DNA of 64,000 bases from the IMG/VR virus record IMGVR_UViG_3300044971_004534. One strand, given 5' to 3'. The position numbers and the translations under genes were made by a program. Source of the stretch: a virus. How positions within the stretch are numbered: position 1 is the first letter of the stretch; the number at the start of each line of letters is the position of its first letter. The notes beneath the pieces are model-generated. The model was given only the letters and a program-made list of their open reading frames with translations. It had not been told where the DNA came from and ran no database searches. Positions 20,901 through 34,934 of the stretch are shown here, piece after piece.

Positions 20901-23747
20901 GCATTTACCTATGTGTTTAAATTCGTATCTAATGGAACGACCGCCAACGGCTTTAGTGGTCCTGGCATGGTTTACGAGGCAAGAGTCGGTGATATAGGTG
21001 CAACTGCAATAAACGATTTGTGCAATCAGGCTTTCAGGTATCAATTATGGATGAGTAGTGATGCAAGTATTTTGGCAATAGGCAATCATAGATGGGACGC
21101 TCAATCTGATCAAATAAGTCCAAACGGCGATCCACTACCTTCGACATTCTATATAGATCTTTATAGAAGAAACGTAACTGGGTCTGGCATTTCATACGTT
21201 AAGCTTTTAGAGCAAGGGTTAAAGCCATCTGATTCTAGTGAAGGTAGGCCGGTCGATGTGTTCTGCTCTTCATTGTGGGGAGTTCAAAGCAGTACAAACG
21301 CTTCTCTCTATGACATATATGTCGCATCTGGAATAGACCCAGATGTTAATGACGCCAATTACTTGGCTCCTACATCTGCTAATTATAGTGCCAGTAACTT
21401 TGAAAACAGAATAGGAAGGGTGACTGTATTTACTGCATCTGTCCCAACCGGAGGACAAGCAAGTAGAAGATCTATTGAGTTAAGCGACATTGTTCCTGCA
21501 ACAGATCCAGCATTCAATGATAACAATAAAGCTTTTGCAAATCTTAATTTCTGGACAATGACTCCAATAAGTGCAAAAAACGGAAGCTGTGGATTGATGT
21601 TCCATCAAAATACTTTAATCGCTTCTTCTCTTGGCTGCCTGATTAAAATGTCTCCCAAGTCTCCCTATCACGGATCTGGATGGCAAATTAGTAAAATTGT
21701 TGGAGCCAATTCTCCTATGCCTTCTATTCCAGTAAAAAGGGCAATTACTCCATATTCTCAATTTGGTTATGTAAATAATAATCCAAATGGTAATTTTGAA
21801 TACGCAATAAATGCAGATATTATGAACATGTCAACTATTGCGGTGCCAACAATTAATTCTTCTGCATCTGCTGGATTTAATAAGCTAGCATCAAAAATAG
21901 CGTTTATAGAGATCGATGTAGACAACAATCCTTATTCAAAGATATTCTCTATATCTAATTATACGTCGATTGTGTCTGGATCTTCTGCAGATGTTGATCA
22001 GTTAGGAGTATTCGATGCAAGTACTGAGCTAAGCAACCCAGTGTGTTATCCTGCCTACACCGCCATAAAGTCTAAGAGAAGCGGCTATTCGGCAGGTCAG
22101 TCTTCTCCAGAAACGCAGATTTACAACCCCAGCATAAAAGCATGGCTGTATGCATATGATTTAGGCAATTCTCTGGGAGATTCGGAATTGCCATACAGCT
22201 CATATGAGTATTCAAAAGATAACGAAGGTCATATACTCGTTAAGCCTCCTGTGCCCGATCTAGAGAAAAAGCAGTTTTATTTTGGTGGTAATGAATTCCT
22301 GACCCTTGATGGAAATAATGTCTATAGAGACTATCATGGACTTATTGGGAATATCAAGGGAACTCTTTTGCAAATGGATTGGCAAGATGTTTCTGGTATA
22401 TTGTGGTGGGGCACTAATGACATATACATCATGAGATCTTACAAATATGATCAGCATTATTCGCCTTCAGCATCAGATATTCTTCTTGAAGAATATGTAC
22501 GCTCAAGAACTTATTATGCAGATGAAAACACGGGTATCACAAGTGTTAATAAAAATGCAATTGTTAAATTTGCTATGCCAAGCAATGCTAATACTATAGT
22601 GCAAAACCCAACTTGTGATGTTAATGATTATATGGGAACTTTAGGATGCGGCTTGACTGGACCAAAAGTCATTACGGTCGCAGCATCCACCAACTATGGT
22701 CTTTACGATGTCCTGCATAATGGAATAACTTCAATAATTCCACTTATGCAGTCAAGAGAAAAATTCGGAAAGCAAAAAACAGTAATTATATTAGATGACT
22801 TCCCTGATCACATGAACAGCCAAATATTTACAGATATTGGTACAAATTATGCAAATATTATGCCGTTCTATAGTTACTCTTCATCGAATACAGTCAATCC
22901 ATACAGGGTATATGCTGAAGATATGTTTATTGACAGCTCTATGCGTTTAATATATAGAAAATCGGACCTCTTGCCATCTATATCAAAGTATCAAAATGGT
23001 TTCTCAATTCCCAATATTAGCGTTAATAACTGTGAGGGACCAATAGTGTTTGCAAGAAAGTCAATATATAGTTCTGCCAATACTAAGTGGAGCTACATGA
23101 TCAAAGACTTGTCTTCTTGCTTTGATCCTCTGTATGGAACAATTTATAATGGCGACAATATTTTACTTACTAGACTTTCTTACATGTATCCCAATTCAGT
23201 TTCGTCTTCTCATCCAGAGGCAGATTGGTATTTTGCTCCAATATCTGAAACTGTGTCAAATGCAGATGTTCCGACATATACTCCATCTATGAGTAAATGC
23301 CTGTGTGTGGGCCTACTTAGAGCTTCTAGTAGAAAGATAGCAAAATGGAAATTAAATTCTTCTTCTGGAGGAAGTTCACTCAGCCTACTTGATATTATAA
23401 CTGTTCAGACTGGAGATCAATCACCAGCCAGAATAAGAACAAGAATAGATACTTCCTCTAGTGGAGCATCAACGATAAAAGACCTTGTATTGTGTGGAAA
23501 AATAAATACTGATATTATAAATGCAGCTCTTAGCAAGTCTGGAGCAACAGATATTCCAAATTTAATGACAAAAATAAAAGACAATTTATATTCAGTAATT
23601 GGCGGTCAAAGCTTTATGGACGCCAACGGATGCATTCATATAGTCGATACAGATTCAGAGGCAAAAATAGATAATACAAAAGAAGAATTTATAAGAGAAT
23701 TTATGAATAAATTTAATGGATTTTATCATGTCATACGAGGCGCATAA
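11952..23747 (+). CDS. giant protein 2 (3931 aa), unknown function, with a Ser-rich linker and FG-GAP-like propeller repeats
   Basis: Uninterrupted 11.8-kb ORF with ATGA overlap to ORF1 and TAATG overlap to ORF3. Poly-Ser linker at nt 12621-12730. Repeats of the form 'FG..(x)..hhhhS.P....G.VYIF' at nt 14404-15850. Confidence 0.9.
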   Translation: MIKIRKIIYWHFAVYGGDAETIDPENLPSDSISTLDMGLNEANPIIVNGAPNVRAFSVSTGYEWLIDIFVQDGQTKDLNDENKRTTIRSNNPVASPGFVWFDLAVVELKAVFGNPIVVESLEQLSLVKDDNNDGVRIPVKYMLFGAHKEGETGAQLRNEPDAFFDATNIPNEVSSEGDQGHQEFVEAISSKTFVDEDGVPNSFFINIKHQEEVTKIGCCNIDVSESSSSSSSADSSSSSSEDGASSSSSSSSTDTGSESCPSGLTLRSQPVMHDGNRRVWAVRQTADIHISNNPVYEGNFFADSGVLVRKNYIASELVYADVENVLNGNSSWNSTHWQHAGYISFRENKPYAMGLHQDPVFNKTDLSYSSGNLCAYHAYDDNFELPVTIQSITWDTRGYLWALCSGGAKDATPDSGTTVSGVQSTEGVYALIPGGWKKQPADIIYFGGSNTGNTFEYEDLNSSALVLASLHMRWGCDRSKSKDFLAIVDNDFHIHIKKNANSNINFPEEQNIRNDNGLLLLADNIYAGVEKICVVEAGTTLPYLISYSQLDTDLSSLIATERANNVRYSILACGVDFIVGVSQSSQIKVFVNSSATNVPTQDDADELQSSISTDITDGYSIKKVVCGDSFFAVYLKKTSGESKLYARGYIKDIKIWDGSNYDANFIRPQSWDLSETKPILDVEAFGDYLIIAYAEGLPSASPKSLYYEVATVLDDIPLHNTGSASSAATSKILNYEVLNQLRKIYIDNASNDVDSYITSSNINHLLPSKGLLGYRKFENVNSAYGNLFIHENSEYLHHPYFSQSGSFIPGKMEVKSGMFGYDISSFGWNGVTYLAVSAPTEGPVLSAQNGGVLGQQDGKHGRGAVYIFKRYENGFKLIQKIQHSDTSVIAFGKQVCLYATKNASDEDAMALICSYRGNTSDYTRIYYWNSVEELFEWSEMTDSFIQVNQLTLSPSTSDIKIIEIKRISDHNISVTSFVNNAIEGYVQFINLRENIANMDTCKGVYVKLTSFNSLSFGPRFGASAVKESSASGWTVAIGYTTYNSALQTSLRLNFLNFPLEDAIEIKMQDPVSPLIAQGNGAVMLLYLSEDMQSFESDVSGPIFNVIEGTGFNSNATTKPYFGYDIDADENHIVISSPYDSGYSASGESSNILEGGSVRIFEFNNPISLGSRDVNVNSEFKFNLNNLSQYHLPRQVYNLGAGTYSAQWTKKKLGKSVKLVGNKVLVSSCDDDLRRGPSTQSNLFGNVFLLDKNSKGSWDIVSSSHEAHNGDRFGHKIEILPLNILSNGKDFIALVSSPGMVTSAVQLEDCLTCNPADTDYSYGSGVVKSIVVSGDKSFGVLPSRIPSVLQNIDSDNTSTYTLSSSALGIKHVAHDISNGPLNSRYVWKYYPARLLERSAIQSGVNDNEIPKFRLAKFINDPSPTGETDFASTYSDVGAFSMISDTGGGTAGDITVANLPIYDRANLNIRVMEMHPRPYRIVDASMSSSLDEASTSVSLPKQIRSDYFDFATPAKNELQETIYLYGPILSPQQGAQWSGSISPSNSFGITPVRASRWLIPVADSDVSNILYINGIAVWSPTVSNVEYNIAGGYYFNSSSFLRPSGQQVHTNMTGNPLVKPFNGTVDTSRWWSTRNYISPGCVQLLDSSTEGHLTVWPAFNFARTFTSSGNPNPPPFGGAIQGFLDTKNFYIGKADIRPGVTSVDASRIDACKIDKAYFWGLKIAEGSYNVFINAYLNATSVNPFRIHQTTKYLAWSGCTVALERSSPAASQLEYGTSYTGYAPSYESYDFNLGHILSYPPINFRCTTGNVAPKNSTVVNNVSTISAISNAPNGSTHALYLDAVGWNSSLMNVGVKDIVIHGHYNYHGFNKSASESLPVAAIADRRSQIVTFISGYGSKISSINGRNSGSCFFAPSIKFTCILDSGLSSYRRWKQNFGGLTDWNHNGGAYSGWGKIAKNPTFFANSFTNNPSWVTESGLPNGFNARVAPTDTMYMVDLFWDYDPNATTPSPEDLKTAIFNSSFNSTQDIYSNLLLPVKVSGNLSQSQVNLFPLRAYPLNRNQINFSSCGTTCPAILVFGIAVSGYPATQFPPVIEPTTTSPYTDTRSAHFGYSSNNVQCANGISVKYDRQYTNIVACKTFTDGFGVTIGGVAAEAGTHLASTITSIGTNWCGTGGNTSTNVATYSYKYKTILYPSITSIDSHTPSSGFNTHSTYFTGGGPSLLQWHSHFAPSFIETNIGNGPLSFGAINEFAPYYDDFANSTTGWNTPRSGHNIMFWVRHKYNASTVATLSDVFPAKINDLVGSFSGSIYPKLRKESAFKYPYKTNMLTGRGRNVQISALGSELRSIGRDEIVYQNEFIYRKLSYHRQNSSGTVVNSQFSPVHEFNSVEINSSGTYTNNQSFVNDISSIVPLLYSARSILENDPLKPHIREEYQTETVSNVRYRRASLFDRVTPQDFFTNPETLVCLPTFSMPDMLDFATSDNSFSHIFGILNNFADSYGPNYPDSANLKYIGMLKNTLSTNDKNNLGYSSSSPTASAFWKAIKNGLAHIIDVNSSVMSLSNGEDLLTVTILASLNGNVWTGSNPIKHSFGWQNSILSEEIYGGGLICAVITAKVTNNGGIANVRSTFANSAATLSSSSVKARVSAVLDGNTVPEKSWCRMGIWMQPLLGTAKPTKDNSPYYWPGNFPWSGSSDIKYLGINPGDQAVSQTKFFHTSPGMIKVPINRSYLAKLGKHIMLKYNTGSEQDRYFAIIGPCVYHIQDALSLDNGPLWWANERKSSCFKMPSYSWDSRPVVFQKFGLSVAEISSASSYSDLFKFSAYTGQVPRMVKSFFNLESFTSDFGANNTAEFAAYGSVGGGAGSLFAPNEQWFDYGSETYGFAPSGANDAVAILGEGIGFNIREGNKIHAFVFWRNAFYRITPPLSSATESHPVITEIPINTTYVQNGETIIIKDQLKAAYELHRLNGFFNGNTSFVVSGNAGNDNDNAFTYVFKFVSNGTTANGFSGPGMVYEARVGDIGATAINDLCNQAFRYQLWMSSDASILAIGNHRWDAQSDQISPNGDPLPSTFYIDLYRRNVTGSGISYVKLLEQGLKPSDSSEGRPVDVFCSSLWGVQSSTNASLYDIYVASGIDPDVNDANYLAPTSANYSASNFENRIGRVTVFTASVPTGGQASRRSIELSDIVPATDPAFNDNNKAFANLNFWTMTPISAKNGSCGLMFHQNTLIASSLGCLIKMSPKSPYHGSGWQISKIVGANSPMPSIPVKRAITPYSQFGYVNNNPNGNFEYAINADIMNMSTIAVPTINSSASAGFNKLASKIAFIEIDVDNNPYSKIFSISNYTSIVSGSSADVDQLGVFDASTELSNPVCYPAYTAIKSKRSGYSAGQSSPETQIYNPSIKAWLYAYDLGNSLGDSELPYSSYEYSKDNEGHILVKPPVPDLEKKQFYFGGNEFLTLDGNNVYRDYHGLIGNIKGTLLQMDWQDVSGILWWGTNDIYIMRSYKYDQHYSPSASDILLEEYVRSRTYYADENTGITSVNKNAIVKFAMPSNANTIVQNPTCDVNDYMGTLGCGLTGPKVITVAASTNYGLYDVLHNGITSIIPLMQSREKFGKQKTVIILDDFPDHMNSQIFTDIGTNYANIMPFYSYSSSNTVNPYRVYAEDMFIDSSMRLIYRKSDLLPSISKYQNGFSIPNISVNNCEGPIVFARKSIYSSANTKWSYMIKDLSSCFDPLYGTIYNGDNILLTRLSYMYPNSVSSSHPEADWYFAPISETVSNADVPTYTPSMSKCLCVGLLRASSRKIAKWKLNSSSGGSSLSLLDIITVQTGDQSPARIRTRIDTSSSGASTIKDLVLCGKINTDIINAALSKSGATDIPNLMTKIKDNLYSVIGGQSFMDANGCIHIVDTDSEAKIDNTKEEFIREFMNKFNGFYHVIRGA

Positions 23748-26700
23748 TGATTAGGAACCCATTTGAAACCACGCAATATGCGTCTAATTTCTTAAAAGAA
23801 AACATTATACTTGATTCTTCTGGAATAGGACTGACAGGTATAGATGTTTTAATGGAATTTCTTGTTAATCAAACAAGAATACGTCAAGAAGCTATAAGAA
23901 TAGGCTATATATCCAACAATCCATCTAGAATAGATGGAGAAGATTATAGCCAAGTAAGTTTGCTTGGCTTGTCTTTTGATACCCCTCAAAATATATATGA
24001 TGGCTCTTTACTTATAGTGAGCGCAATAAAGCAGATGTTTTCTGGGCATCCATCTGAACTTTATGAAAAACTTGCTTATAGACCAACTATTATACAATAT
24101 CAAGATCCAGACGATGGAGTGTATGTTAGTAGAACTGGTGGATTTTTTCATAAAATTGTGGACCCTAGTTCTGATGTTGAGCAGCCAAATGATGACTATT
24201 TTGAATTCTTTGACGATCCAGAATTTGTTGATGGTCAATATCTTACAAGTGGAGACATAGACAGATTTAATAGTCCGCCATCTTTTACTGATCCTTCAAA
24301 TCCTTACGCTACATTAAATGAATATTTGAAAGATCAAGTTAAATGGGTTAACAGCACAATCGCTATATTAAATAAGTTAAAATATATCCATAAAAAATTA
24401 GTTTTTACTTATCCATTTGCTGGAATATCTTTTGGAAGTGGCTGCTCATTTGCAAAAAATATTAGTTCTACCACTACTCCAGATTCGAACGGAAAGCCTG
24501 TAGAAATTATACTTGACATGTCTGAGGTGGTAGCTTCTTGTGTTGACGGTACTGATTCCTATGGGTATCTTTGCATTAGGTGGCGTAGTGTCGGCAACGG
24601 TTCACGTTTTATTGTCATGCCCACCGTGGGTGCGACAGCTGCACAGACAGCGGCTCTTCGTCAGCCAATATGGGGCGCATTGACAGTTAACCCAGCTTCA
24701 GATCAGCCTTATGTTCATAGTAATTCTGGTAATCAAGGATATTTGAACAGTGCTAACTACATTTCTTATGCTTCTTCTGAAGGTATATTGAAGACTTGGG
24801 ACCCAGAAACTAATACTGTTTTCGATAGGCCAGTTTCTCCTATTCTGAGATCTGGTTGTCAAAATGCTCCGTGCTGTACAACAAACGATAATACCAATAA
24901 CATTCCATTTAGAGAAGGTGGCAATGACGTAAACTCTGATTTTGCATGTATAAATATTAATAATACTTTCTTCTCTACTGGAACTGGTTCTGACTGGGAT
25001 AATAAAATAAGAATAGTGATATTTTCTGGATGCCAGAGTGCTAGCTCCAATACTTCCTGGGAGCTTGAGCTTAATTGTCTTGGCTGCACAGATTGCAATG
25101 TGACTTTGACTGAATGCGGAGGCATTCCTTCATCAAGTTCAAGTTCTGAAGACATTAATTTTGGCATATTTATTCTAGATGATAGTAATAAAATAGGAAA
25201 AATAGATGTAATAACCGGCAATTTATCTGGTAGAATTCTTACTGTCAAAGATGATGCAGGCAATCCACTGGAAGATAATCTGCATGACATTGATTTTGAT
25301 ACTGACGGCAACCTGTATGGTCTTGCGCAATCTGGAATTTTATACGTTATCAGCAAGTCAACAGGTAAAGCAACAGTTGTGGGGAATACTGGACTAACAA
25401 ATACAAACGGTCTTGGATTTGGTCAAGACGGCAGACTTTACACTATAAATAATACAACTCTTTATTATTTAAACAAGCAAAATGCTGGTACGAATCAAGT
25501 GGGAAGTATTGGCTATACTGGAAGCGGTGATATATGTACTTCAAGATCTGGCCCCAATAGACTAATAGTTTCTGCAAAAAATGGAAATAATAATTTTATC
25601 CTTGAATTATCTGTTGGTGCAAATAGCGTAACATCTCAAGTAAAACTTAGTGGATCAAGAGTTGTTCCAAGAGTTTTTGGTTTAGCTAGACCACTTTCTC
25701 TTTCTGCAGGCCCACTTGCTGTTGCTGATCAGAAAATATATGTTTTTAATAGATTTGATACTTCAGATGCTTCTATGACTGTTGTTTCCGATTTTTCTCA
25801 GTCTGGTCTTTGCTGTGCGGTTGGCGCAGCTTACTGGAACGGAAATTTTGAAAATGACGAAGGTGGCGGTGGAGGCGGCAACTTTGATTTTCCACAGTGT
25901 GACAATATACCAGTATGGACTGTAGGTAGAGATAATGTTCTTAAGCAGGTTAATATTAAAAACGGGGACTCTCTTAAGTCTTATACACTGCAGGGTGCGA
26001 CATTTGATAGCTTCTATGGATGTCCAACCGATTTAGCGGTAAATGATTCTGGCGACATATATCTAATAGATAACTCTAATCTTTATAGAGTGCTACTGCC
26101 CTTTGTTGACGCTCCTGTGCAAGACGTTGCTACCGCTATTCTAATTGGACGTTTATTAGAAGGTAGTTCCGCAGTAGCTTTTGCCGGTTTAACGTTTGGC
26201 AAAGACGGGATCTTATATGGATGTATGGTTGAAGGGGTTACAAACCCTATTTCTACGATTCCAGCATATCCACTATTCAAAATAGATCCTCAAACTGCAG
26301 AATGCACTGCTGTTTGCACAGACATGGGTGTTGGTTGTCAGGGTGATGTTGCTCCATGGACCGACGCGAATGGTGTAAACTGGTTTTATTTAGTTGGCGC
26401 TAATGAGGATCATAACCAGATATACAGGTTTAGATATGGTGGAGAGGGAGACTGCGGTGAACTTGAGCTTATTTCAGACCCAGACACTTTCCAGTATGGA
26501 ACAGACGTTTTTAGCATTTCCAATGCTCGTGATAATAAAATTTATGTTATAGCTGGAACCCAGGTTCTTAAGATAGACCCGATCACTAATACCATTACGG
26601 AAACTGGAGTGAGTATTAGTGGATCTCATAGTCATGGTTCTGGTTGGCTTCCTAATGATGTGCTTGCAGACGGTTGCTCTGACAACTCCTCTAGCTCAAG

Positions 26701-29700
26701 TTCATCTGGTGAAAATTCATCTTCAAGCTCTTCTTCAAGTGAAGATATTGCGCCATGTCCTTGCGTGCCCCAGTCTTCAAGTAGTTCAAGTTCAAGTTCA
26801 AGTTCAAGCAGTGAGATTTCTTCATCCTCTTCTAGTTCAAGCTCCTCAAGTTCAAGTTCTTCTAGTGCTTCATGCCCAGATTGTGGAGATAGTCCGTCTA
26901 TTATTATAGACAGGGATGATTGGCTAAGTGGTATAGTTAATTGCCATAAAGTTGGATTTGATTCTGGATCAGTCATAAGGATAAAATGGTTTCAAGTTTG
27001 TTCTCTTTGCTGCACTTGTCCTACAGAAAGACAGTTCACAAGAGAATGTGAAATCGAAATAAGCATATTTGATATTGATTGTCAGAGTTGGTCTGCAATT
27101 TGGCAATATCTTATTAGTACAGGACAAGTAGAAGAAATTAGATGCAGCGTAGATGGTGGTTCTTGCAGATTTTATTATAGAGTAGATTTTGACAGAGATC
27201 CAGATTTGCCAAATATATTTTATTGGAGATTTACAGAAAACTTCCAAACATTTTTCCCAGATTATCCTGCCAATTGCGAATGTCCTCCATGTGATCCAGA
27301 TCCATCATGCTGTGACTCGTCTTGCTTTGGCTTAGGCACCATGATAAAAATGGCAGATGGTAGTGAGAAAAGAATTGAAGACATTAAGGAAGGTGATATT
27401 CTTTTAGCAGCTTATTTCAACGAGTTTGGAGTTGCCAGAAATCCTACTTTAGAGCAAATAAACAGTGGTTGGACTTTAAGCGACTCTAGATATATCAGGT
27501 TCGCTGAAACCAGAGTAAAGAGCATAAAGGTTGGATCTGAGCTTTCTATATATAAATTTTCTGATTCATTAAAGCTTACTTTTGAACATCCTGTATTTAT
27601 AATGGATGTAGACGGCACTTTAAAATTTAGAAGTGCTGTGTATATGCAAGATGGCGTTTATGGATATGACGTAAATCTTGAAATGATTCCGATGAGATAT
27701 TTTGAAGAAATAAATAGAAAATCAATCACTATTACTCTCACAACTGAACCTTTCCATTGCATATTTGCAGGAAATATATTAGTGCACACTGGTTCTTCAG
27801 GTAATTACACAAATACAGTTGGTTTTGGTGAAATAGGCATTAATATAAATACTGATATTTATACAGATCCAGTCTCTCCAGCCACATCTGTTATTGACGA
27901 TGGCTCTACTGGTTACAGTTTTATTTCAGACGGATTAGGCACAGTAAATCCAGGGACTGGTGGTCCAATTGACGACAGTGGAGTAATTGTAGACAGCCCT
28001 TATGTTTGTCAATTTGCTTGCAGATGTTTAAGCGGAAATTGCAGCACAGTTAGTTTCGTAAGTTCCTGGAAGCTTGGAACGCCTATACAGTTCTGCGCAG
28101 ATCCTACGGCGTGCTGTAATAATGGAAGTTGTACAAGAGGTAATGCAGACTGTAAAGACGTATCTGACAACTCCGTATTGATTGAAAGAACTATAGTCGC
28201 CAATAGTTGTGCTGATGCTTGTAGAAAATGTGCTGCTCTTGCTACGCAAAGTGTTGATTTTGTAAACAGCCCTTCTTTTGAATGCGCAAACGCTTCACTG
28301 ATATGTACATCATCGGGTTCATCTTCATCTTCCGTTTCTGCTTCGTCTTCAAGTAGTAGCTCCGAAATAACTGGTGAAGAGGTTGTTTTGTGGCTGAATC
28401 CTCCAATGGCTGCAGTTGACGTTGGCAATGGACTTATGTCAGTTTCTGGTGCTCCTACTGCTCATTTATTAAGTAACGGCAATGATGGGCAAATGTTGGC
28501 TCAAAGATTTGCTGTACCAGACAATTGTCAATGGCGTGTTTATAAATTTAGAATGTGGGGCGGTAGCGAATACGTGGACGAGCCTGTTGGTGGAGCGGGT
28601 GGCAACAGCTTGTCAAGTAATATACAAGCTATAAGAATAAACATCTTTAAGTTCCAGGCATCTTCTGGTAATTGGGAGTTGTATAATTCTACTACTGGTT
28701 ATTTAAAAATGGCTTCAGGTTTGATTTTAAATGATCAGGGAAGCACTATGGGCATATTTGGATCTAAGCATTTTCAAATTGACATGGAGTTTAATCCATC
28801 TGTTTCTACTATTTTGGACAGTGGGGATTATTTGCTTGGTATTGGTGGCGTGCATTCTTTGACTGGCCCTACCGCTCCAGAAAAACTTCTGTGGACATAT
28901 AGTGAGTTTGGGACTGCAACCAGCCCTGGGCAATACTCGACTACCAATTTAAACTGGGGAAATTGGGTTGATAGCAATCAGAACACAAGTTTAGCAGCTG
29001 CTCTCATAGGAATAAGAAGTTCAACATGCGTAGTGTCAAGCTCTTCAAGCTCTTCCGGCTTGGGATCTCAATCTTCTAGTTCTTCTTCTGATTTGTCGAG
29101 TTCATCTTCTAGTTCTTCCTCCGTAGGTGCTTGTACGCAATCTTTTGGTCATTGGAACAATAGCAGTGGAACTCCAGTATACTCTGAAATTATTGATTTA
29201 TCTGGATTTGAAGTACAAACCGATACATCTGGAGAGTTTATTGACGTGTGTGTTGAATATATGACTGGCTCAGATATTTCTGACAGAATTCTAATAATAG
29301 CAACAAAAGACGATGATGAGGTTAGTACTGATGAATTCTTAAGAAATGGGGATATAGACTATTCTTACTACGCAAATATTGATAATTACATAAATGGTCA
29401 GGAGAGTAGGTTCTCTATTTCCTCAGGACATCCATTAATCGCCTACAACGGCTCCTCTTTTGCGCCACCATTGCGATCATTGATATTTGATAGCGGTTGT
29501 GCTTTAACTGGAGACACAAATTCCACAGTTACTTCTATAAGGCTTAGAAAAAATTCTGTGTCATTAGACCCAACTGATCCAATGTATAAAAAGTTCCGAT
29601 TGGTTGTATTCGGAGTTTGTGATGTAGCTTTTGCTCCAAATAGTATTACAAATTGGTGGATTACATTTAAGTGTGATATTGCAAATTGCGTTGTAACTTC

Positions 29701-31600
29701 ATCAAGCAGTTCATCTTCGTCTTCTTCTAGTTCTGTTCTGTCTAGCTCTAGTTCATCCAGTAGCTCTTCAGTCTGCACTAAAATATGGTCTGGACCAGGA
29801 TGTCCAGATGTCAATAATGATGGATTTGTAGATTCTCTTGATCTTGGACTTTTAAATGGTATCTGGGGTGCTGTTGATTATGACAATAGAATATCCGTAG
29901 CGTCAGATTTAAATGGAGATGGCTTTATAGACGGGCAAGATATGATTATTCTATTAAGTAACGGTGGATGTATAGAATGTCCTAATTTTCAATGGCCCAT
30001 TTCTTCATCTAGTTCCAGTAGTTCCAGTAGTTCCAGTAGTTCCAGTAGTTCCAGTAGTTCCAGTTCTTCTATACCCTCCGGTCCTCCGCTGCCGTATTAT
30101 GGCTCAAACAAATTTGGTAGATTCATGGTAGATGCAAGAGATGGTAAAAACATAGTTGACATTATGTATATAGGACAAGATGCTAACTATTGGGTTCCTG
30201 CCTTAAATAGAGGTTTTAATTTACTTAATGTAAAAGCTTTTGGTACACCGTTTGCTCCCGCCTTGATGTCTACATCATTTGATGTTGTAAGTAATGTTGC
30301 TCATCTTTCTGCGGATTGGGATGCTGGATCAAATGCTAGATCAAGTGAAGTTGGCACTCTAAAAATTTTCAAAGGTGGTAGTCTTTTTGCCGGAGACGCG
30401 ATACATGAAGCCATGCATACATCTGTTACTCCATATGGAAAAGCTTTGGAGTGGGGGTATGTTCCAAAGATAGATGGTGAGTACTTCATAGAGTATGCTT
30501 CAGGAATGTATATATCAAATGGACCACCAAGCTTGGGCATCCCTATAGATAGCGTTTCAAAACTGGAGTACAGAGTTTTAAGAGTATCTGGTTATACAGG
30601 AAGTTACTCCATGTCTGTGGACACTTATGATGCAAGTAGAAATTATGCTGTATTGCCAGTAGTCAGTAATCAATCAAGTGACCTGATATGGGTAAGTGAC
30701 AGTTTGGAATTTATGTATAATCCATTAGTTCATGGAGTAGAAGGCTTGCGTTTTGCATGTACTGGAAGTGAAAATTTAGGACTCACTTCTGGAATAAGCG
30801 GAGACTTTGGAGTTGGATTGCATAGTTTGCACAAGAATGAAATAAGCGGTCTCGCGATTACTCCATTCCACACGTATGGTCAGGCAACATTTGAGTCATT
30901 AAATTCCGATCTTAATAGACCTGAAACCATTTTTACTTTAGAAACTTATCTAAACGCGATAAATGAAAGATCTGTGTCTGCTTACAGTAAGCTGCCAGGA
31001 GCAGAAGGCGGCTCAGGAAGAATGGTATTCTTCATACAAGCCAATTCGTCTTCTGAATCAACTATGATTAATGACATCATATCGATTAAAGATAAAATTA
31101 CTGCTACATGTTTAGGTTTAGGTTTTGATGAAAACAACTTTACATTCGCCATTATGATACCAGCTCCTATAAGTGAATTCGACTTAGAGTTTGTCAGTCT
31201 TCGTCAAAGCATTGCTGATGCAATACTTGCTCAAAGTAGCTCAATCGCAAATATATCTTTCATAAACATTCCAGCTATTTTCTCTTATACGCAAATGATA
31301 GAAAATGGCTGGGCAACAATTGCGATCACGCCAGTCGAAGAAAATCCAACAAGTCAATTTGCTTTACTGACAGGAGGACAGTGCTGTGAGACTTATACTA
31401 ATTGCTGCCCGAGCGTGCCAGTTTGCACAGGCGGTACTTGCACTTATGTAAGATGCTGGAATTGCTCAGAAGACGCTCCTGGCTTCGGCGTGTGCGGAGT
31501 GGTCATGTCAACAGATCCAGACACAGGAGGAAGTTCTTCAGATACATCTGGTGGAGGCAGTAGCAGCTCTTCTAGTAGTGAAAAAAATCCATTTATTTAA
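23747..31600 (+). CDS. giant protein 3 (2617 aa), modular: propeller-like repeats, Ser linkers, Hint domain, dockerin-like module, HExxH and Cys-rich C-terminus
   Basis: Uninterrupted 7.85-kb ORF. At least 7 Ser-rich linkers separate the modules. 'DGNLYG..., GRLYT...' repeat pattern at about nt 25175-26650. See the sub-features listed separately. Confidence 0.9.
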   Translation: MIRNPFETTQYASNFLKENIILDSSGIGLTGIDVLMEFLVNQTRIRQEAIRIGYISNNPSRIDGEDYSQVSLLGLSFDTPQNIYDGSLLIVSAIKQMFSGHPSELYEKLAYRPTIIQYQDPDDGVYVSRTGGFFHKIVDPSSDVEQPNDDYFEFFDDPEFVDGQYLTSGDIDRFNSPPSFTDPSNPYATLNEYLKDQVKWVNSTIAILNKLKYIHKKLVFTYPFAGISFGSGCSFAKNISSTTTPDSNGKPVEIILDMSEVVASCVDGTDSYGYLCIRWRSVGNGSRFIVMPTVGATAAQTAALRQPIWGALTVNPASDQPYVHSNSGNQGYLNSANYISYASSEGILKTWDPETNTVFDRPVSPILRSGCQNAPCCTTNDNTNNIPFREGGNDVNSDFACININNTFFSTGTGSDWDNKIRIVIFSGCQSASSNTSWELELNCLGCTDCNVTLTECGGIPSSSSSSEDINFGIFILDDSNKIGKIDVITGNLSGRILTVKDDAGNPLEDNLHDIDFDTDGNLYGLAQSGILYVISKSTGKATVVGNTGLTNTNGLGFGQDGRLYTINNTTLYYLNKQNAGTNQVGSIGYTGSGDICTSRSGPNRLIVSAKNGNNNFILELSVGANSVTSQVKLSGSRVVPRVFGLARPLSLSAGPLAVADQKIYVFNRFDTSDASMTVVSDFSQSGLCCAVGAAYWNGNFENDEGGGGGGNFDFPQCDNIPVWTVGRDNVLKQVNIKNGDSLKSYTLQGATFDSFYGCPTDLAVNDSGDIYLIDNSNLYRVLLPFVDAPVQDVATAILIGRLLEGSSAVAFAGLTFGKDGILYGCMVEGVTNPISTIPAYPLFKIDPQTAECTAVCTDMGVGCQGDVAPWTDANGVNWFYLVGANEDHNQIYRFRYGGEGDCGELELISDPDTFQYGTDVFSISNARDNKIYVIAGTQVLKIDPITNTITETGVSISGSHSHGSGWLPNDVLADGCSDNSSSSSSSGENSSSSSSSSEDIAPCPCVPQSSSSSSSSSSSSSEISSSSSSSSSSSSSSSSASCPDCGDSPSIIIDRDDWLSGIVNCHKVGFDSGSVIRIKWFQVCSLCCTCPTERQFTRECEIEISIFDIDCQSWSAIWQYLISTGQVEEIRCSVDGGSCRFYYRVDFDRDPDLPNIFYWRFTENFQTFFPDYPANCECPPCDPDPSCCDSSCFGLGTMIKMADGSEKRIEDIKEGDILLAAYFNEFGVARNPTLEQINSGWTLSDSRYIRFAETRVKSIKVGSELSIYKFSDSLKLTFEHPVFIMDVDGTLKFRSAVYMQDGVYGYDVNLEMIPMRYFEEINRKSITITLTTEPFHCIFAGNILVHTGSSGNYTNTVGFGEIGININTDIYTDPVSPATSVIDDGSTGYSFISDGLGTVNPGTGGPIDDSGVIVDSPYVCQFACRCLSGNCSTVSFVSSWKLGTPIQFCADPTACCNNGSCTRGNADCKDVSDNSVLIERTIVANSCADACRKCAALATQSVDFVNSPSFECANASLICTSSGSSSSSVSASSSSSSSEITGEEVVLWLNPPMAAVDVGNGLMSVSGAPTAHLLSNGNDGQMLAQRFAVPDNCQWRVYKFRMWGGSEYVDEPVGGAGGNSLSSNIQAIRINIFKFQASSGNWELYNSTTGYLKMASGLILNDQGSTMGIFGSKHFQIDMEFNPSVSTILDSGDYLLGIGGVHSLTGPTAPEKLLWTYSEFGTATSPGQYSTTNLNWGNWVDSNQNTSLAAALIGIRSSTCVVSSSSSSSGLGSQSSSSSSDLSSSSSSSSSVGACTQSFGHWNNSSGTPVYSEIIDLSGFEVQTDTSGEFIDVCVEYMTGSDISDRILIIATKDDDEVSTDEFLRNGDIDYSYYANIDNYINGQESRFSISSGHPLIAYNGSSFAPPLRSLIFDSGCALTGDTNSTVTSIRLRKNSVSLDPTDPMYKKFRLVVFGVCDVAFAPNSITNWWITFKCDIANCVVTSSSSSSSSSSSSVLSSSSSSSSSSVCTKIWSGPGCPDVNNDGFVDSLDLGLLNGIWGAVDYDNRISVASDLNGDGFIDGQDMIILLSNGGCIECPNFQWPISSSSSSSSSSSSSSSSSSSSSSSIPSGPPLPYYGSNKFGRFMVDARDGKNIVDIMYIGQDANYWVPALNRGFNLLNVKAFGTPFAPALMSTSFDVVSNVAHLSADWDAGSNARSSEVGTLKIFKGGSLFAGDAIHEAMHTSVTPYGKALEWGYVPKIDGEYFIEYASGMYISNGPPSLGIPIDSVSKLEYRVLRVSGYTGSYSMSVDTYDASRNYAVLPVVSNQSSDLIWVSDSLEFMYNPLVHGVEGLRFACTGSENLGLTSGISGDFGVGLHSLHKNEISGLAITPFHTYGQATFESLNSDLNRPETIFTLETYLNAINERSVSAYSKLPGAEGGSGRMVFFIQANSSSESTMINDIISIKDKITATCLGLGFDENNFTFAIMIPAPISEFDLEFVSLRQSIADAILAQSSSIANISFINIPAIFSYTQMIENGWATIAITPVEENPTSQFALLTGGQCCETYTNCCPSVPVCTGGTCTYVRCWNCSEDAPGFGVCGVVMSTDPDTGGSSSDTSGGGSSSSSSSEKNPFI
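26783..26806 (+). repeat. perfect 6-bp tandem repeat (agttca x4) within a Ser linker
   Basis: Read directly: agttca agttca agttca agttca. In frame, encodes Ser-Ser units. Confidence 0.9.
27323..27790 (+). other. Hint (Hedgehog/intein-like) autoprocessing domain inside giant protein 3
   Basis: N-terminal block 'CFGLGTMIKMADGSEKRIEDIKEGDILL', block B 'LKLTFEHPVF' (TxxH), C-terminal block 'FHCIFAGNILVHT'. About 156 aa. Terminal Asn is replaced by Thr and the next residue is Gly. Confidence 0.7.
29807..29970 (+). other. dockerin-like duplicated Ca-binding module inside giant protein 3
   Basis: Two 12-residue EF-hand-like loops, each followed by a helix: 'DVNNDGFVDSLDLGLLNGIWG' and 'DLNGDGFIDGQDMIILLSNGG'. 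Confidence 0.65.
30011..30064 (+). repeat. perfect 9-bp tandem repeat (agttccagt x6) encoding poly-Ser
   Basis: Read directly from the sequence. In frame (AGT TCC AGT). Part of a run of about 24 Ser. Confidence 0.95.
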
Positions 31601-31676: not shown

Positions 31677-32045
31677 ATGGCACCAAAAGAAGATAAATCA
31701 GATAATGATTCTATGAATAAACTAAATTTTATTTCTAATATAGGTCAAACTTTTTGGACTGTTATTGTTGGTGCTGGAGTGTTTTTTGCAACCATGTATT
31801 CAACTCAATCTGTAGTAAATACTAGAATATCTTATATAGAAGAAGAAATACATAGCTTGCAGCAAAGTGACAAAAAAATAAGTGACGATCTTCAAAATTT
31901 AAGTACTAAGCAGAATACAATATTGATGGATATTTCAAATAGGCTTAGGGACATGGAAGTAAAGCTAACAGAATTGCAAGTTAGAGTGCTTTACGCTCTT
32001 GAAGCAAAAGATTCTGCCAAAAAATCTCAAGAAGCTCCTAAGTAA
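31677..32045 (+). CDS. small membrane protein with C-terminal coiled coil (122 aa)
   Basis: AAGGAG 8 nt upstream of the ATG. Hydrophobic segment 'FWTVIVGAGVFFATMY' followed by a heptad-like charged region. Confidence 0.6.
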   Translation: MAPKEDKSDNDSMNKLNFISNIGQTFWTVIVGAGVFFATMYSTQSVVNTRISYIEEEIHSLQQSDKKISDDLQNLSTKQNTILMDISNRLRDMEVKLTELQVRVLYALEAKDSAKKSQEAPK

Positions 32046-33260
32046 TTATTGTAAATCTTGTAAGTAATATTTTTTGCATTCTTCAGGGATGCAGGATGTA
32101 TTATATTCTGTTAGCACCCAATGCCATAATCTTGGCTTTTTGTATTCCGCATAATCTCCGTAACCATCAGTTAATATGATAATTGCGTCATATTTTTTAA
32201 TATTTTTATTTACGTAATCACTTATGCACTTAAATGATGTGCCGCCGTACCCAAAAAGATTTTTTGTTTTCTTATCTATTTTATGAACTGTTGTGTCAAA
32301 ATTATATAAAAATACATTAAACTTATTTTCTGGGAATGAAGCAGCCGAAGCCATAAAAGCAGCACTCCAGTTAGAGCAAGATCCACTTGTGTCCATAAAA
32401 ATATGAACATCTCTTTTTGTTATTGTTTCACACAGCGAATCTGTACTTGGTATAAAATAATCAGCTTGCCAGTCTCTTCTTCTTGGCTGCTCAAACCAAC
32501 TCTCTTCCTGTACGTTTTGTGCATCAAATCTTTTTGATATTTTTCTTAACACATTTTGCCAATTTATTTTTCTTGAAGCTTCTTCTTCCTCTGCACTTAG
32601 TGCTTTTTCAAGGTTTCCAGGCTCAGTTCCTGGAGCAGAGTATTTGTGCTTCAAATTTTTAATTAATTTCTGCAACTCTTTAGTATCAATGCCGTTTTGT
32701 TTAAGCCAGTCGGTTATTCTTTTTAGTTGTTCATCTCCAAGATTGCCGATTTTTTCAAGCCAATCATGGTTTGATCCAGATGTAAACTGGTCCATGTCTA
32801 TATCAGAATTGAGTATTTTTTTATAGTAATACTCGAAACATCTTCCAGATTCTAATGATTTATCTATTTTTTCTAGATAAACTGCGTTTTCAAGTACTGG
32901 ACAATTTTCTGGATGAAAATCAAATTCATTTTTTAATATTTCATTAACGCATATGTCCATGCATACATTTTCTATCTTTGATACTTTATTATTTTTAGAA
33001 AATCTAGCTCCGTGATTTAATATAACATGCAGAAGTTCATGAGCAACAATAGCTGCCTTTTCTCTTGCAGACAATTTGTCCCAAAAATATGGATTATATG
33101 ATATGTAAAGAGGCTCTCTTGATCTAGTATTAAAATTTACGCAAGCCGTGGGAATAAAGTCACTTTCTACAAAATTAAATGACATTACTAGCTGAGAAAG
33201 TATCTTGCTTTTTTTGGCAAGTACGTTACTTATTTCTTTTTTCTCAAAAGAACCGTTCAT
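32046..33260 (-). CDS. VWA-domain protein with N-terminal putative metallopeptidase domain (DUF2201-like, CobT-like partner of MoxR ATPases)
   Basis: HExxH in 'AAIVAHELLHVILNH'. MIDAS-like 'FMDTSGSCS' in the C-terminal half. Located directly downstream of the AAA+ gene. Confidence 0.7.
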   Translation of the reverse strand: MNGSFEKKEISNVLAKKSKILSQLVMSFNFVESDFIPTACVNFNTRSREPLYISYNPYFWDKLSAREKAAIVAHELLHVILNHGARFSKNNKVSKIENVCMDICVNEILKNEFDFHPENCPVLENAVYLEKIDKSLESGRCFEYYYKKILNSDIDMDQFTSGSNHDWLEKIGNLGDEQLKRITDWLKQNGIDTKELQKLIKNLKHKYSAPGTEPGNLEKALSAEEEEASRKINWQNVLRKISKRFDAQNVQEESWFEQPRRRDWQADYFIPSTDSLCETITKRDVHIFMDTSGSCSNWSAAFMASAASFPENKFNVFLYNFDTTVHKIDKKTKNLFGYGGTSFKCISDYVNKNIKKYDAIIILTDGYGDYAEYKKPRLWHWVLTEYNTSCIPEECKKYYLQDLQ

Positions 33261-33265
33261 ATAAT

Positions 33266-34879: not shown

Positions 34880-34901
34880 AGGTATTTTTTTTCCTTCATA
34901 G

Positions 34902-34934
34902 TAATAATATCCATACTGGAGAAAGATATGCCAA
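34902..34934 (-). promoter_or_regulatory. candidate promoter (TTGGCA-N16-GGATATTATTA) for the AAA+/VWA operon
   Basis: On the minus strand: TTGGCA, 16 nt, GGATATTATTA, about 20 nt upstream of the ATG at 34879. Same GGATAT-type element as three plus-strand sites. Confidence 0.35.

What the first reader, a model, noticed from the sequence alone, without database searches (positions are those of the whole stretch)
27323..27790. Hint (Hedgehog/intein-like) autoprocessing domain embedded in giant protein 3, not a canonical intein
Seen: intein/Hint blocks are present in order.
- 'CFGLGTMIKMADGSEKRIEDIKEGDILL' (block A, starting with Cys).
- 'LTFEHPVF' (TxxH, block B).
- 'FHCIFAGNILVHT' (blocks F/G).
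- The terminal Asn needed for splicing is Thr, and the +1 residue is Gly rather than Cys, Ser or Thr.

Established: Hint domains lacking these residues (bacterial intein-like domains, Hedgehog) carry out N-terminal cleavage or transfer the upstream chain to another nucleophile. They do not splice.

Inference: giant protein 3 cleaves itself between Ser1192 and Cys1193. This would release the roughly 1190-aa N-terminal part, or covalently attach it to another molecule.
Basis: partly seen in the sequence, partly recalled or inferred. Interest (0 to 1): 0.7.

Follow-up and report, generated by a model that had tools for sequence, protein, structure and literature searches.

The report
Self-cleaving Hint domain in giant phage protein
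A 156-residue self-processing (Hint, intein-like) domain really does sit in the middle of a 2617-residue protein of an uncultured large virus, and it most likely cuts that protein in two rather than splicing itself out; this kind of domain is already known.

Summary
Residues 1193-1348 of the 2617-aa ORF (nt 27323-27790) form a Hint domain.

- **Direct Pfam hits:** below threshold.
- **Exhaustive phmmer search:** 182 relatives.
- **Profile from distant relatives only:** scores the segment at 142 bits.
- **Family profile against solved structures:** hits bacterial intein-like (BIL) domains at E about 1e-18.
- **AlphaFold model:** pLDDT 90; best structural matches are BIL domains, then inteins and Hedgehog.

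Cys1193, Thr1278/His1281 and His1347 are conserved. The family's usual terminal Asn is Thr here, and +1 is Gly. An IMG/VR orthologue keeps His-Thr|Gly. The Hint is the most constrained part of the protein (83% identity against 63% overall).

So this is a BIL-type autoprocessing domain that has lost C-terminal cleavage. The inferred activity is an N-S acyl shift at Ser1192|Cys1193, which would split the protein into fragments of about 129 and 152 kDa or pass the N-fragment to a nucleophile. That activity is not tested.

Two things were noticed across the family. Most relatives are C-terminal Hint domains of phage fibre- or adhesin-like proteins. Their short tails after His-Asn almost always contain a Lys.

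Verdict: a new member of a known kind, of moderate interest.

The parts
23747..31600 (+). Host gene: 2617-aa modular 'giant protein 3'. It is the last of three translationally coupled giant ORFs (6115-11955, 11952-23747, 23747-31600).
   Evidence: ORF list and translation. The start and stop codons overlap as ATGA and TAATG. The same protein lies on JGI metagenome contigs of 161 kb and 0.2-1 Mb. An orthologue of 2671 aa lies on IMG/VR viral contigs.
23747..25150 (+). Conserved N-terminal domain (aa 1-468, MIRNPFE...). It is shared with proteins that carry other cargo modules. It is presumed to be the attachment or anchor module.
   Evidence: It is 47-78% identical in P0151, P0152 and L004/L005, and is also present in P0001 and P0012. 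The AlphaFold model was poor (pLDDT 54), so the function is not established.
25163..26746 (+). Two beta-propeller-like lectin or NHL-type modules (aa ~473-1000).
   Evidence: Sub-threshold Pfam hits to Tachylectin (27.1 bits against a cut-off of 29.8), DUF4394, DUF5074 and NHL.
26873..27322 (+). Cys-rich pre-Hint module (aa 1043-1192), ending ...CCDSS. It follows long poly-Ser linkers (26687-26866).
   Evidence: Translation. It is conserved in the orthologue at 62% identity. Similar Cys-rich pre-Hint segments occur in P0002, P0003, P0006 and P0012.
27320..27325 (+). Predicted scissile bond Ser1192|Cys1193, the site of the N-S acyl shift.
   Evidence: Cys is present in all 64 aligned domains that cover this column and is invariant in alignment A1. 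The cleavage itself is inferred.
27323..27790 (+). Hint (BIL-type) autoprocessing domain, aa 1193-1348.
   Evidence: There is only one Hint in the window.
27323..27406 (+). Block A: CFGLGTMIKMADGSEKRIEDIKEGDILL.
   Evidence: It aligns with the family consensus CxxxGTxIxMADGSxKxIEDLxVGD.
27578..27589 (+). Block B: Thr1278-Phe-Glu-His1281 (TxxH).
   Evidence: His is present in 70 of 70 domains. The Thr position is Thr in 61 and Ser in 8 of 70.
27752..27790 (+). Blocks F/G: FHCIFAGNILVHT. The penultimate His1347 is kept. The terminal Asn is replaced by Thr1348, and +1 is Gly1349.
   Evidence: The terminal residue is Asn in 62 of 70 domains and in 256 of 263. His-Thr|Gly-Ser-Ser is conserved in the IMG/VR orthologue.
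27791..27973 (+). Post-Hint conserved segment (aa 1349-1409, GSSGNYTNTVGFGEIGININTDIYTDP...).
   Evidence: The phmmer alignment to P0001 runs on to query position 340, which is aa 1409. A similar GxGIxVxDP-like motif follows the Hint in P0002, P0003, P0006 and P0012.
29807..29953 (+). Dockerin type I-like domain (aa 2021-2069), in the part of the protein that would stay attached to the Hint.
   Evidence: Pfam PF00404 at 26.4 bits, above its cut-off of 22.9. The orthologue has two copies.
31559..31597 (+). C-terminal tail SSSSSSSEKNPFI, carrying Lys2613 (nt 31583-31585). A poly-Ser run followed by Lys and hydrophobic residues ends every Hint-bearing relative in this clade.
   Evidence: Compare P0012 ...SSSSSSKILIP, P0002 ...SSSSSKMLVNG, P0006 ...SSSSSKIIVS, P0004 ...CSKNLVI and the orthologue ...SNEKFPFI.

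Best explanation
Residues 1193-1348 are a bacterial-intein-like (BIL-type) Hint autoprocessing domain. It is embedded in a modular giant protein of an uncultured large virus, probably a jumbo or huge tailed phage.

**Shown here:**
- The fold is Hint and the segment belongs to a large Hint family.
- The first-step catalytic residues are conserved.
- The C-terminal Asn is lost and there is no +1 nucleophile.
- The domain is under strong purifying constraint.

**Inferred from established Hint chemistry:**
- After folding, Cys1193 attacks the Ser1192 carbonyl. Thr1278 and His1281 assist, and the result is a thioester.
- Asn cyclisation cannot happen because residue 1348 is Thr. Transesterification to a +1 side chain cannot happen because that residue is Gly. 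The thioester can therefore only be resolved by water or by an external nucleophile.
- The net result is a single cut. It separates a ~129 kDa N-fragment (anchor domain, two propeller modules and the Cys-rich module) from a ~152 kDa fragment. The second fragment begins with the Hint and carries the dockerin-like and C-terminal modules.
- Less likely, the N-fragment is attached through its new C-terminus to another molecule.

In the wider family the same domain normally sits at the extreme C-terminus and removes itself. The window protein's clade appears to have inserted cargo after the Hint and disabled C-terminal cleavage.
For: **Identity**
- Whole-library phmmer E-values down to 3.4e-31.
- Leave-out profile score of 141.7 bits.
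- Of 30 family members scanned, 18 match Pfam Hom_end_hint, 18 Intein_splicing, 13 PT-HINT, 12 Hint_2 and 11 Hint. Relatives mostly carry precomputed PF07591.
- The family profile hits BIL structures 6tmm/6y75 and 2lwy at 1e-17 to 1e-18.
- AlphaFold2 pLDDT is 90.2. Foldseek ranks BIL domains first, then inteins, then Hedgehog.

**Catalytic set**
- Cys1193, His1281 and His1347 are invariant in A1.
- The block B position is Thr or Ser in 69 of 70 domains.
- All clade members that lost the Asn (P0001 HS, P0004/5/7 HD, P0014 HV) still keep Cys1 and [TS]xxH.

**Constraint**
- The Hint is 83% identical to the IMG/VR orthologue, against 63% for the whole protein.
- It has the lowest dN of any segment: 0.112, against 0.155 to 0.44 elsewhere.
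- His-Thr|Gly-Ser-Ser is conserved in that orthologue.

**Not an intein**
- 56 of 69 relatives have 60 or fewer residues after the Hint, and 39 have 12 or fewer.
- +1 is rarely a nucleophile: 5 Ser/Thr and no Cys among the 62 Asn-terminated domains.

**Chemistry**
- BILs lack the +1 nucleophile, and cleavage products dominate (PMC4031507; PMC7765530).
Against: - No experiment was done. Cleavage is inferred from residue conservation.
- Direct Pfam and NCBIfam hits of this protein are sub-threshold.
- The block F position that is Asp in many inteins is Thr here, by my reading of the alignment. Its effect on the acyl shift is unknown.
- The penultimate His, which normally assists Asn cyclisation, is still conserved although the Asn is gone. 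It may have another role that this account does not include.
- The conserved post-Hint motif and the distal Lys tail are not explained by simple hydrolysis.
- Whether the protein is a virion component is not shown. The N-domain model was poor and there are no PHROG hits.
Confidence: 0.65

Rival explanations
1. Thioester-mediated ligation rather than hydrolysis. The Cys1193 thioester is captured by an amine, for example a Lys side chain. The Lys could be in the protein's own C-terminal Lys tail, in another virion protein or on a host-surface molecule. The result would be an isopeptide-linked, branched or cross-linked product, as the Tetrahymena BUBL BIL2 domain makes.
For: - The closest solved relatives by profile are the BUBL1 BIL2 structures. 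BIL2 forms a Lys-epsilon isopeptide (PMC8616854).
- Across the family, 84 of 94 short tails after His-Asn contain Lys, against 20.4 expected. The maximum in 20,000 simulations was 38.
- Linkers in tandem Hint arrays are mostly K, KG or KGGG.
- Every Hint-bearing member of the window protein's clade ends with poly-Ser, then Lys, then hydrophobic residues.
Against: - In the window protein the nearest Lys after the Hint is at residue 1442, and the tail Lys is 1265 residues away.
- The Lys could instead serve folding, charge or Asn-cyclisation chemistry.
- The sequences counted are not phylogenetically independent.
- No acceptor has been identified.
Confidence: 0.15
2. Catalytically dead Hint fold, kept as a structural, spacer or interaction module. 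The protein stays in one piece.
For: - The terminal Asn is lost, and T, S, D and V all occur at that position in the clade. This shows that part of the catalytic apparatus has decayed.
- Hint-like folds without processing activity exist. For example, the AXH module is matched by 11 of 30 family members.
Against: - Cys1, block B Thr/His and the penultimate His are invariant even in the members without Asn.
- The Hint is the slowest-evolving part of the protein.
- A purely structural module would not need the N-terminal Cys.
Confidence: 0.15
3. Cleavage at both ends without ligation, as in type B BILs. The Hint excises itself through an atypical C-terminal reaction, for example an N-O shift at His1347-Thr1348. 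This would give three fragments.
For: - Type B BILs lack block G similarity yet cleave at the C-terminal junction by an atypical reaction (PMC7765530; PMC4031507).
- Several clade replacements of the Asn are themselves nucleophiles or can cyclise: Thr, Ser, Cys and Asp.
Against: - P0014 has Val at this position.
- No precedent known to me for Thr-mediated cleavage at this position in Hint domains.
- Blocks F and G otherwise look like type A BIL or intein, not type B.
Confidence: 0.04
4. Canonical or class-variant mini-intein that splices out and leaves a 2461-aa mature protein.
For: Blocks A, B, F and G are present in order. Inteins are abundant in the Foldseek and profile hit lists.
Against: - Thr cannot cyclise, and +1 Gly has no side-chain nucleophile.
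- There is no homing endonuclease.
- No Hint-less allele with a joined junction was found.
- Relatives are mostly terminal domains with tails of 1-12 residues.
- The host protein is a shuffled, non-conserved modular protein.
Confidence: 0.01

Closest known systems
Type A bacterial intein-like (BIL) domains (Amitai et al. 2003; Dassa et al. 2004; structure 2lwy, Clostridium thermocellum BIL)
   Same: - Hint fold. 2lwy is the top Foldseek hit and a profile hit at 2.6e-17.
- N-terminal Cys and block B TxxH.
- No +1 nucleophile.
- Located in variable, non-conserved, apparently extracellular modular proteins.
- The wider family ends in His-Asn, like type A BILs.
   Different: - The window domain has His-Thr instead of His-Asn, so the Asn-dependent C-terminal cleavage and weak splicing of type A BILs are not available.
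- The host is viral.
- Family members are predominantly at the extreme C-terminus and have a Lys-containing tail.
Tetrahymena BUBL BIL2 domain (6tmm/6y75)
   Same: Best profile-to-PDB match (E about 2e-18) and second-best Foldseek match. It has no +1 nucleophile. It transfers the upstream chain to a Lys amine (PMC8616854).
   Different: - It is eukaryotic and is flanked by ubiquitin-like domains.
- It keeps the terminal Asn; the crystallised construct is an N143A mutant.
- No ubiquitin-like cargo is present here.
Pretoxin HINT (PT-HINT, PF07591) of polymorphic toxins
   Same: It is the Pfam family most often assigned to the relatives. It too sits in large secreted modular proteins.
   Different: - The window protein itself does not reach the PF07591 threshold.
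- PT-HINT lies in front of a C-terminal toxin. Most relatives here have nothing after the Hint.
- The window protein's downstream region shows no toxin domain. Its HEAMH motif is not conserved in the orthologue.
Hedgehog/Hog C-terminal autoprocessing domain
   Same: Hint fold (1at0 and 6tyy among the Foldseek hits). Cleavage at the N-terminal junction only, through a Cys thioester. No Asn and no splicing. Family relatives are C-terminal domains that remove themselves.
   Different: - No sterol-recognition region was identified.
- Similarity is more distant than to BILs and inteins.
- The acceptor nucleophile, if there is one, is unknown.
S74 intramolecular-chaperone autopeptidase of phage tail fibres and spikes
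   Same: An analogy only. It is a C-terminal module of phage fibre proteins that cuts itself off after assembly (PMC7824862). Relatives of the window Hint end fibre-like proteins, for example Erwinia jumbo-phage gp110.
   Different: The fold and chemistry are unrelated: a Ser-Lys dyad peptidase against a Cys thioester Hint.

Membership tests
Hint (Hedgehog/intein) superfamily | Hint beta-fold | tested here: met
   The AlphaFold2 model has pLDDT 90.2. Foldseek against PDB gave 51 hits at E<=1e-3; all 50 listed are BIL domains, inteins, Hedgehog or Vint. BFVD top hits have TM 0.79 and include 'Hint domain containing' phage proteins.
Hint (Hedgehog/intein) superfamily | Significant sequence-profile match | tested here: met
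   Direct Pfam hits are sub-threshold. The leave-out family HMM scores 141.7 bits. The family profile against PDB BILs and inteins reaches 1e-18. Members hit Pfam Hint families.
Hint (Hedgehog/intein) superfamily | N-terminal Cys/Ser nucleophile and block B TxxH | tested here: met
   Cys1193 and Thr1278-x-x-His1281 are present. Both Cys and His are invariant in A1.
Canonical (class 1) intein | C-terminal Asn (or Gln/Asp) able to cyclise | tested here: not met
   The terminal residue is Thr1348. The orthologue has the same.
Canonical (class 1) intein | +1 Cys/Ser/Thr on the C-extein | tested here: not met
   +1 is Gly1349.
Canonical (class 1) intein | Insertion at a conserved site of a conserved host protein, with intein-less alleles | tested here: not met
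   The host protein is modular and shuffled. Relatives carry the Hint at or near the C-terminus. The Hint-less N-domain relative P0152 carries different cargo altogether.
Type A BIL domain | C-terminal His-Asn | tested here: not met
   The window protein has His-Thr. The wider family meets the feature, with Asn in 256 of 263 domains.
Type A BIL domain | No +1 nucleophile; located in variable regions of non-conserved proteins | tested here: met
   +1 is Gly. In the family +1 is mostly A, I, K, G or F. The architectures are modular and hypervariable.
Type A BIL domain | Type-specific sequence motifs of Amitai et al. 2003 | not testable with these tools
   No type A or type B BIL profile is in the libraries. 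The only evidence is proximity to 2lwy.
Type B BIL / Hint_2 (PF13403) | Match to the Hint_2 profile; C-terminal motif unlike intein block G | tested here: not met
   The window protein has no Hint_2 hit. 12 of 30 relatives match weakly. Blocks F and G (FAGNILVH-) look intein-like or type-A-like.
PT-HINT (PF07591) | Profile match above the gathering score | tested here: not met
   There is no PF07591 hit for the window protein at E<=1. Many relatives do carry it.
PT-HINT (PF07591) | Toxin domain immediately C-terminal, with an adjacent immunity gene | tested here: inconclusive
   Pfam finds only a dockerin-like domain in the 1269 downstream residues. HEAMH is not conserved. The next gene is a 122-aa ORF with a weak holin-like PHROG hit.
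Hedgehog Hog domain | Sterol/adduct recognition region after the Hint, and cholesterol-activating Asp | not tested
   No profile for the sterol-recognition region was available. Hint PF01079 scores only 13.6 bits.

The most novel reading that the evidence does not exclude
The window domain belongs to a large, essentially uncharacterised family of Hint domains, many of them phage-encoded. They terminate fibre- or adhesin-like proteins and pair the Hint with a conserved Lys just after His-Asn. In this clade the Lys sits at the end of a long flexible tail.

The novel reading is that these are not mere self-removing plugs. They would be thioester-to-Lys ligases that form an isopeptide, either within the protein or to another virion or host molecule. 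In the giant protein this would re-attach the 1192-residue N-fragment to Lys2613 or to a partner, producing a branched or cross-linked fibre.
Probability: 0.12. Interest if true: 0.75.

Novelty: new member of a known kind. Interest (0 to 1): 0.4.

Why it matters
If the cut happens, one 2617-residue gene product is really two large polypeptides, or a branched one. That changes how the protein should be annotated, modelled and looked for in proteomics.

More broadly, the relatives show that BIL-type Hint domains are a recurrent C-terminal module of phage fibre-like proteins. One example is a virion structural protein of cultured Erwinia jumbo phages. This offers a tractable system for asking what Hint autoprocessing does in virion assembly or host attachment.

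A naturally Asn-less Hint that should only cleave at its N-terminus is also the behaviour sought in thioester-generating tags for protein engineering.

Tried and rejected
- **Direct Pfam and NCBIfam scans:** only sub-threshold hits.
- **Word-indexed homologue search with the Hint segment:** nothing.
- **Megablast of the gene against phage genomes:** nothing.
- **tblastn of the N-domain against phage genomes:** nothing.
- **BLAST among the three giant proteins:** no shared modules and no second Hint.
- **PHROGs and Pfam on giant proteins 1 and 2 and most neighbours:** no hits, so a virion role could not be established.
- **N-domain in genome contigs:** no relatives.
- **N-domain in metagenome contigs:** three distant loci, all cut off in poly-Ser repeats and without a Hint in the part held.
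- **AlphaFold2 of the N-terminal domain:** pLDDT 54, too poor for a fold search.
- **Metalloprotease cargo downstream (HEAMH at aa 2220):** rejected, because the orthologue has YESLH.
- **dN/dS:** dS is saturated, so only dN could be compared.
- **Active-site geometry:** model coordinates could not be read in the sandbox, so it was not measured.
Full report
**1. The observation**

The segment nt 27323-27790 translates in frame to CFGLGTMIKMADGSEKRIEDIKEGDILL...LTFEHPVF...FHCIFAGNILVHT. It lies inside a 2617-aa ORF at 23747-31600 on the + strand.

- Cys is residue 1193 and is preceded by Ser1192.
- TFEH is residues 1278-1281.
- The last residue is Thr1348 and +1 is Gly1349.

**2. Is it a Hint domain?**

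Direct library scans are weak.
- Pfam gives only Hom_end_hint, at 20 bits against a cut-off of 32, covering 28 residues.
- Pfam also gives AXH, and Hint PF01079 at 13.6 bits.
- NCBIfam gives nothing useful.
- A single-sequence PDB search puts the C. thermocellum BIL domain 2lwy first, but only at E 0.03.
- The word-indexed homologue search found nothing.

The exhaustive phmmer search of 1.84 billion representatives settled the question.
- It returned 182 hits at E<=1e-3 for the whole library, 19 at E<=1e-10, and a best of 3.4e-31.
- Most align from query position 122-124 to 279. That is exactly Cys1193 to Thr1348.

I aligned 29 of these domains with the window segment (alignment A1). Cys1193, His1281 and His1347 are invariant.

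Four further results confirm the assignment.
- Of the 30 A1 members, 18 match Pfam Hom_end_hint, 18 Intein_splicing, 13 PT-HINT, 12 Hint_2, 11 Hint and 4 Vint.
- The A1 profile hits solved BIL domains (6tmm/6y75 at about 2e-18, 2lwy at 2.6e-17) and then many inteins.
- To avoid circularity, I built an HMM from the 24 members below 31% identity, without the window protein. It scores residues 1183-1352 at 141.7 bits.
- AlphaFold2 with A1 gives mean pLDDT 90.2. Foldseek ranks 2lwy and the BUBL1 BIL2 domain first, then inteins, Hedgehog 1at0/6tyy and Vint.

The fold and the homology are established.

**3. What kind of Hint?**

These counts come from 69 near-full-length homologous domains.
- The N-terminal residue is Cys wherever that column is covered.
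- Block B is [TS]xxH in 69 of 70 domains.
- The penultimate residue is His in 69 of 70.
- The terminal residue is Asn in 62 of 70.
- +1 is mostly A, I, K, G or F. Among the 62 Asn-terminated domains it is Ser or Thr in only 5 and never Cys.
- 39 of the 69 have 12 or fewer residues after the Hint before the stop codon.

In a larger set of 263 domains the terminal residue is Asn in 256.

Taken together, these are the hallmarks reported for type A BIL domains: His-Asn, no +1 nucleophile and a variable host protein (PMC4031507; PMC7765530). The difference is that most of these domains are terminal.

The window protein belongs to a small clade, its closest relatives, in which the terminal residue varies:

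| Protein | Terminal residue and +1 | Residues after the Hint |
|---|---|---|
| Window protein | HT\|G | 1269 |
| IMG/VR orthologue | HT\|G | about 1330 |
| P0001 | HS\|A | 191 |
| P0014 | HV\|G | 484 |
| P0004, P0005, P0007 | HD\|G | 31 |
| P0002, P0003, P0006, P0012 | HN | 33-50 |

Within this clade the four proteins with long C-terminal extensions all lack Asn. The short-tailed ones have Asn or Asp. The sample is small and the sequences are not independent.

All members that lack Asn keep Cys1 and [TS]xxH.

**4. Is it functional?**

An orthologue of 2671 aa lies on two IMG/VR viral contigs of 48 kb and 224 kb.
- It is 63% identical overall but 83% identical in the Hint. The flanking 130-150 residues are 62% and 68% identical.
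- dN is lowest in the Hint at 0.112. The N-domain has 0.155 and other segments 0.27-0.44. dS is saturated.
- His-Thr|Gly-Ser-Ser is retained.

A syntenic orthologue in another metagenome is P0001, 999 aa. It shares the upstream giant ORF and the downstream dCMP deaminase, SET and ATP_bind_3 genes. It has the same N-terminal domain and the Hint close to its C-terminus.

There is exactly one Hint per locus.

**5. Host protein and context**

The window has about 36% GC. Three giant ORFs of 1946, 3931 and 2617 aa are translationally coupled through ATGA and TAATG overlaps. The first two have no Pfam or PHROG hits.

Neighbouring genes include:
- a sigma-70-like protein;
- dCMP deaminase;
- a helicase;
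- a Holliday-junction resolvase;
- glycosyltransferases;
- an AAA_3 ATPase next to a DUF2201 gene.

The protein occurs on contigs of 161 kb and 0.2-1 Mb and on IMG/VR contigs. It has no relatives in 185,579 species genomes. It is most likely from a jumbo or huge phage, but no capsid or tail hallmark was seen in this window.

The protein is modular. In order, it contains:
- a conserved N-domain, aa 1-468;
- poly-Ser linkers;
- two lectin- or NHL-like propeller modules;
- a Cys-rich module;
- the Hint;
- a conserved post-Hint segment;
- further modules separated by poly-Ser, including a dockerin type I domain above the Pfam threshold;
- a tail ending ...SSSSSSSEKNPFI.

The same N-domain is fused to an FGE-sulfatase domain, with no Hint, in P0152. 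The N-domain therefore looks like a common anchor for variable cargo.

**6. Mechanism**

Established Hint chemistry says the following. Cys1, with block B Thr and His, forms a thioester at the N-terminal junction. Resolution by splicing needs a +1 nucleophile and Asn cyclisation. Type A BILs use Asn cyclisation and then aminolysis. Hedgehog uses an external nucleophile (PMC4031507, PMC7765530).

With Thr1348 and Gly1349, only hydrolysis or external capture is possible. The inferred outcome is a single cut that gives fragments of 128.7 kDa (aa 1-1192) and 151.5 kDa (aa 1193-2617). I hold it at about 0.65.

The rivals are:
- capture by an amine, such as a Lys, giving a cross-linked or branched product;
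- a dead structural domain;
- atypical cleavage at both ends, as in type B BILs;
- true splicing, which the sequence effectively excludes.

**7. Things noticed about the family**

*(a) A conserved Lys after His-Asn.* 95 domains have tails of 15 or fewer residues, and one of those tails is empty.
- Of the 94 non-empty tails, 84 contain Lys.
- 20.4 would be expected from the family's Lys content of 4.3%. The maximum in 20,000 simulations was 38.
- Ten one-residue tails are simply 'K'. Many others are IK, IKQx, FKL or KLI.

*(b) Tandem Hint arrays.* Several proteins are tandem arrays of up to seven Hint domains with nothing between them but K, KG, KGGG or R.

*(c) A displaced Lys tail in this clade.* In the window protein's clade the proximal Lys is missing. 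Every Hint-bearing member nevertheless ends with poly-Ser, then Lys, then hydrophobic residues. It looks as if cargo was inserted between His-Asn and the Lys tail.

*(d) A possible parallel.* The closest solved relative, BUBL BIL2, ligates its upstream chain to a Lys epsilon-amine (PMC8616854). This makes a Lys-directed transfer worth testing, but nothing here shows it.

*(e) Phage fibre-like hosts.*
- Cultured Erwinia jumbo phages (Alexandravirus) encode a 481-aa 'virion structural protein' in the tail gene cluster. It has collagen-like GXY repeats and ends in this Hint...SGC|IVYG...THEHP...VLVHN|TDIVAKAEKT-stop.
- BFVD structural neighbours at TM 0.79 are uncultured Caudovirales proteins with fn3, PASTA or collagen annotations.
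- Other relatives carry MBG, Calx-beta, CBM_4_9, fn3 and LCCL modules.

A comparative review of jumbo phages discusses S74 self-cleaving chaperone domains in fibres but not Hint domains (PMC7824862).

**8. Comparison and novelty**

The domain works like a Hedgehog or type B BIL domain, with N-terminal cleavage only. By sequence and structure it is nearest to type A BILs and BUBL BIL2. It fails the His-Asn criterion of type A BILs and the profile thresholds of PT-HINT and Hint_2.

BIL domains, their cleavage-dominated chemistry and their presence in variable secreted proteins have been known since 2003. 'Hint domain containing' phage proteins are already annotated in UniProt. The finding is therefore a new member of a known kind, with a derived Asn-to-Thr state.

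What may be new is the family-level Lys-tail pattern and the domain's use in phage fibre-like proteins.

Interest is 0.4. The most novel reading not excluded is Hint-driven isopeptide ligation in virion fibres, at a probability of about 0.12.

Noticed in passing
Homologues P0008-P0202; compare window 31559-31597: Short C-terminal tails after the Hint's His-Asn almost always contain Lys: 84 of 94, against about 20 expected. Ten of the one-residue tails are just 'K'. The window protein's clade lacks the proximal Lys, but each member ends with poly-Ser, then Lys, then hydrophobic residues.
   Followed up: partly
Proteins P0009, P0017, P0032, P0053: Tandem arrays of up to seven Hint domains are joined only by K, KG, KGGG or R. 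There is no cargo between the copies, and their purpose is unknown.
   Followed up: partly
L006:4975-6417 (Erwinia phage pEa_SNUABM_2, NC_061443.1 gp110): An annotated 'virion structural protein' in the tail gene cluster of cultured jumbo phages has collagen-like GXY repeats. It ends in the same Hint family: C|IVYG...THEHP...VLVHN, then 10 residues, then stop.
   Followed up: partly
window 6115-31600: Three giant ORFs of 1946, 3931 and 2617 aa are translationally coupled through ATGA and TAATG overlaps. The first two have no Pfam or PHROG hit at all and share no detectable similarity with each other or with the third.
   Followed up: no
window 29807-29953: A dockerin type I domain scores above the Pfam threshold (26.4 bits against 22.9), downstream of the Hint. 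The IMG/VR orthologue has two copies.
   Followed up: no
window 30404-30418: An HEAMH (HExxH) motif in the C-terminal domain looks like a zinc-protease signature. The orthologue has YESLH at this position, so the motif is probably chance.
   Followed up: yes
Alignment A1 members; PDB ataxin-1 chains: The Pfam AXH (ataxin-1/HBP1) model is matched by 11 of 30 Hint family members, down to E 1e-13. The family profile also retrieves ataxin-1 AXH structures over the N-terminal ~50 residues.
   Followed up: no
L003:4267-6231 (P0152): The same conserved N-terminal domain (MIRNPF...) is fused through a Ser/Gly linker to an FGE-sulfatase domain, with no Hint. This suggests the N-domain is a common anchor for interchangeable cargo.
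   Followed up: partly
L009, L010, L011: Metagenome contigs that encode distant relatives of the N-domain all end inside poly-Ser coding repeats. Assemblies probably break systematically within these genes.
   Followed up: no
window 31677-34954: The 122-aa ORF just downstream has a weak holin-like PHROG hit (E 3.5e-4). On the opposite strand, a DUF2201_N metallopeptidase-like gene sits next to an AAA_3 ATPase gene.
   Followed up: no
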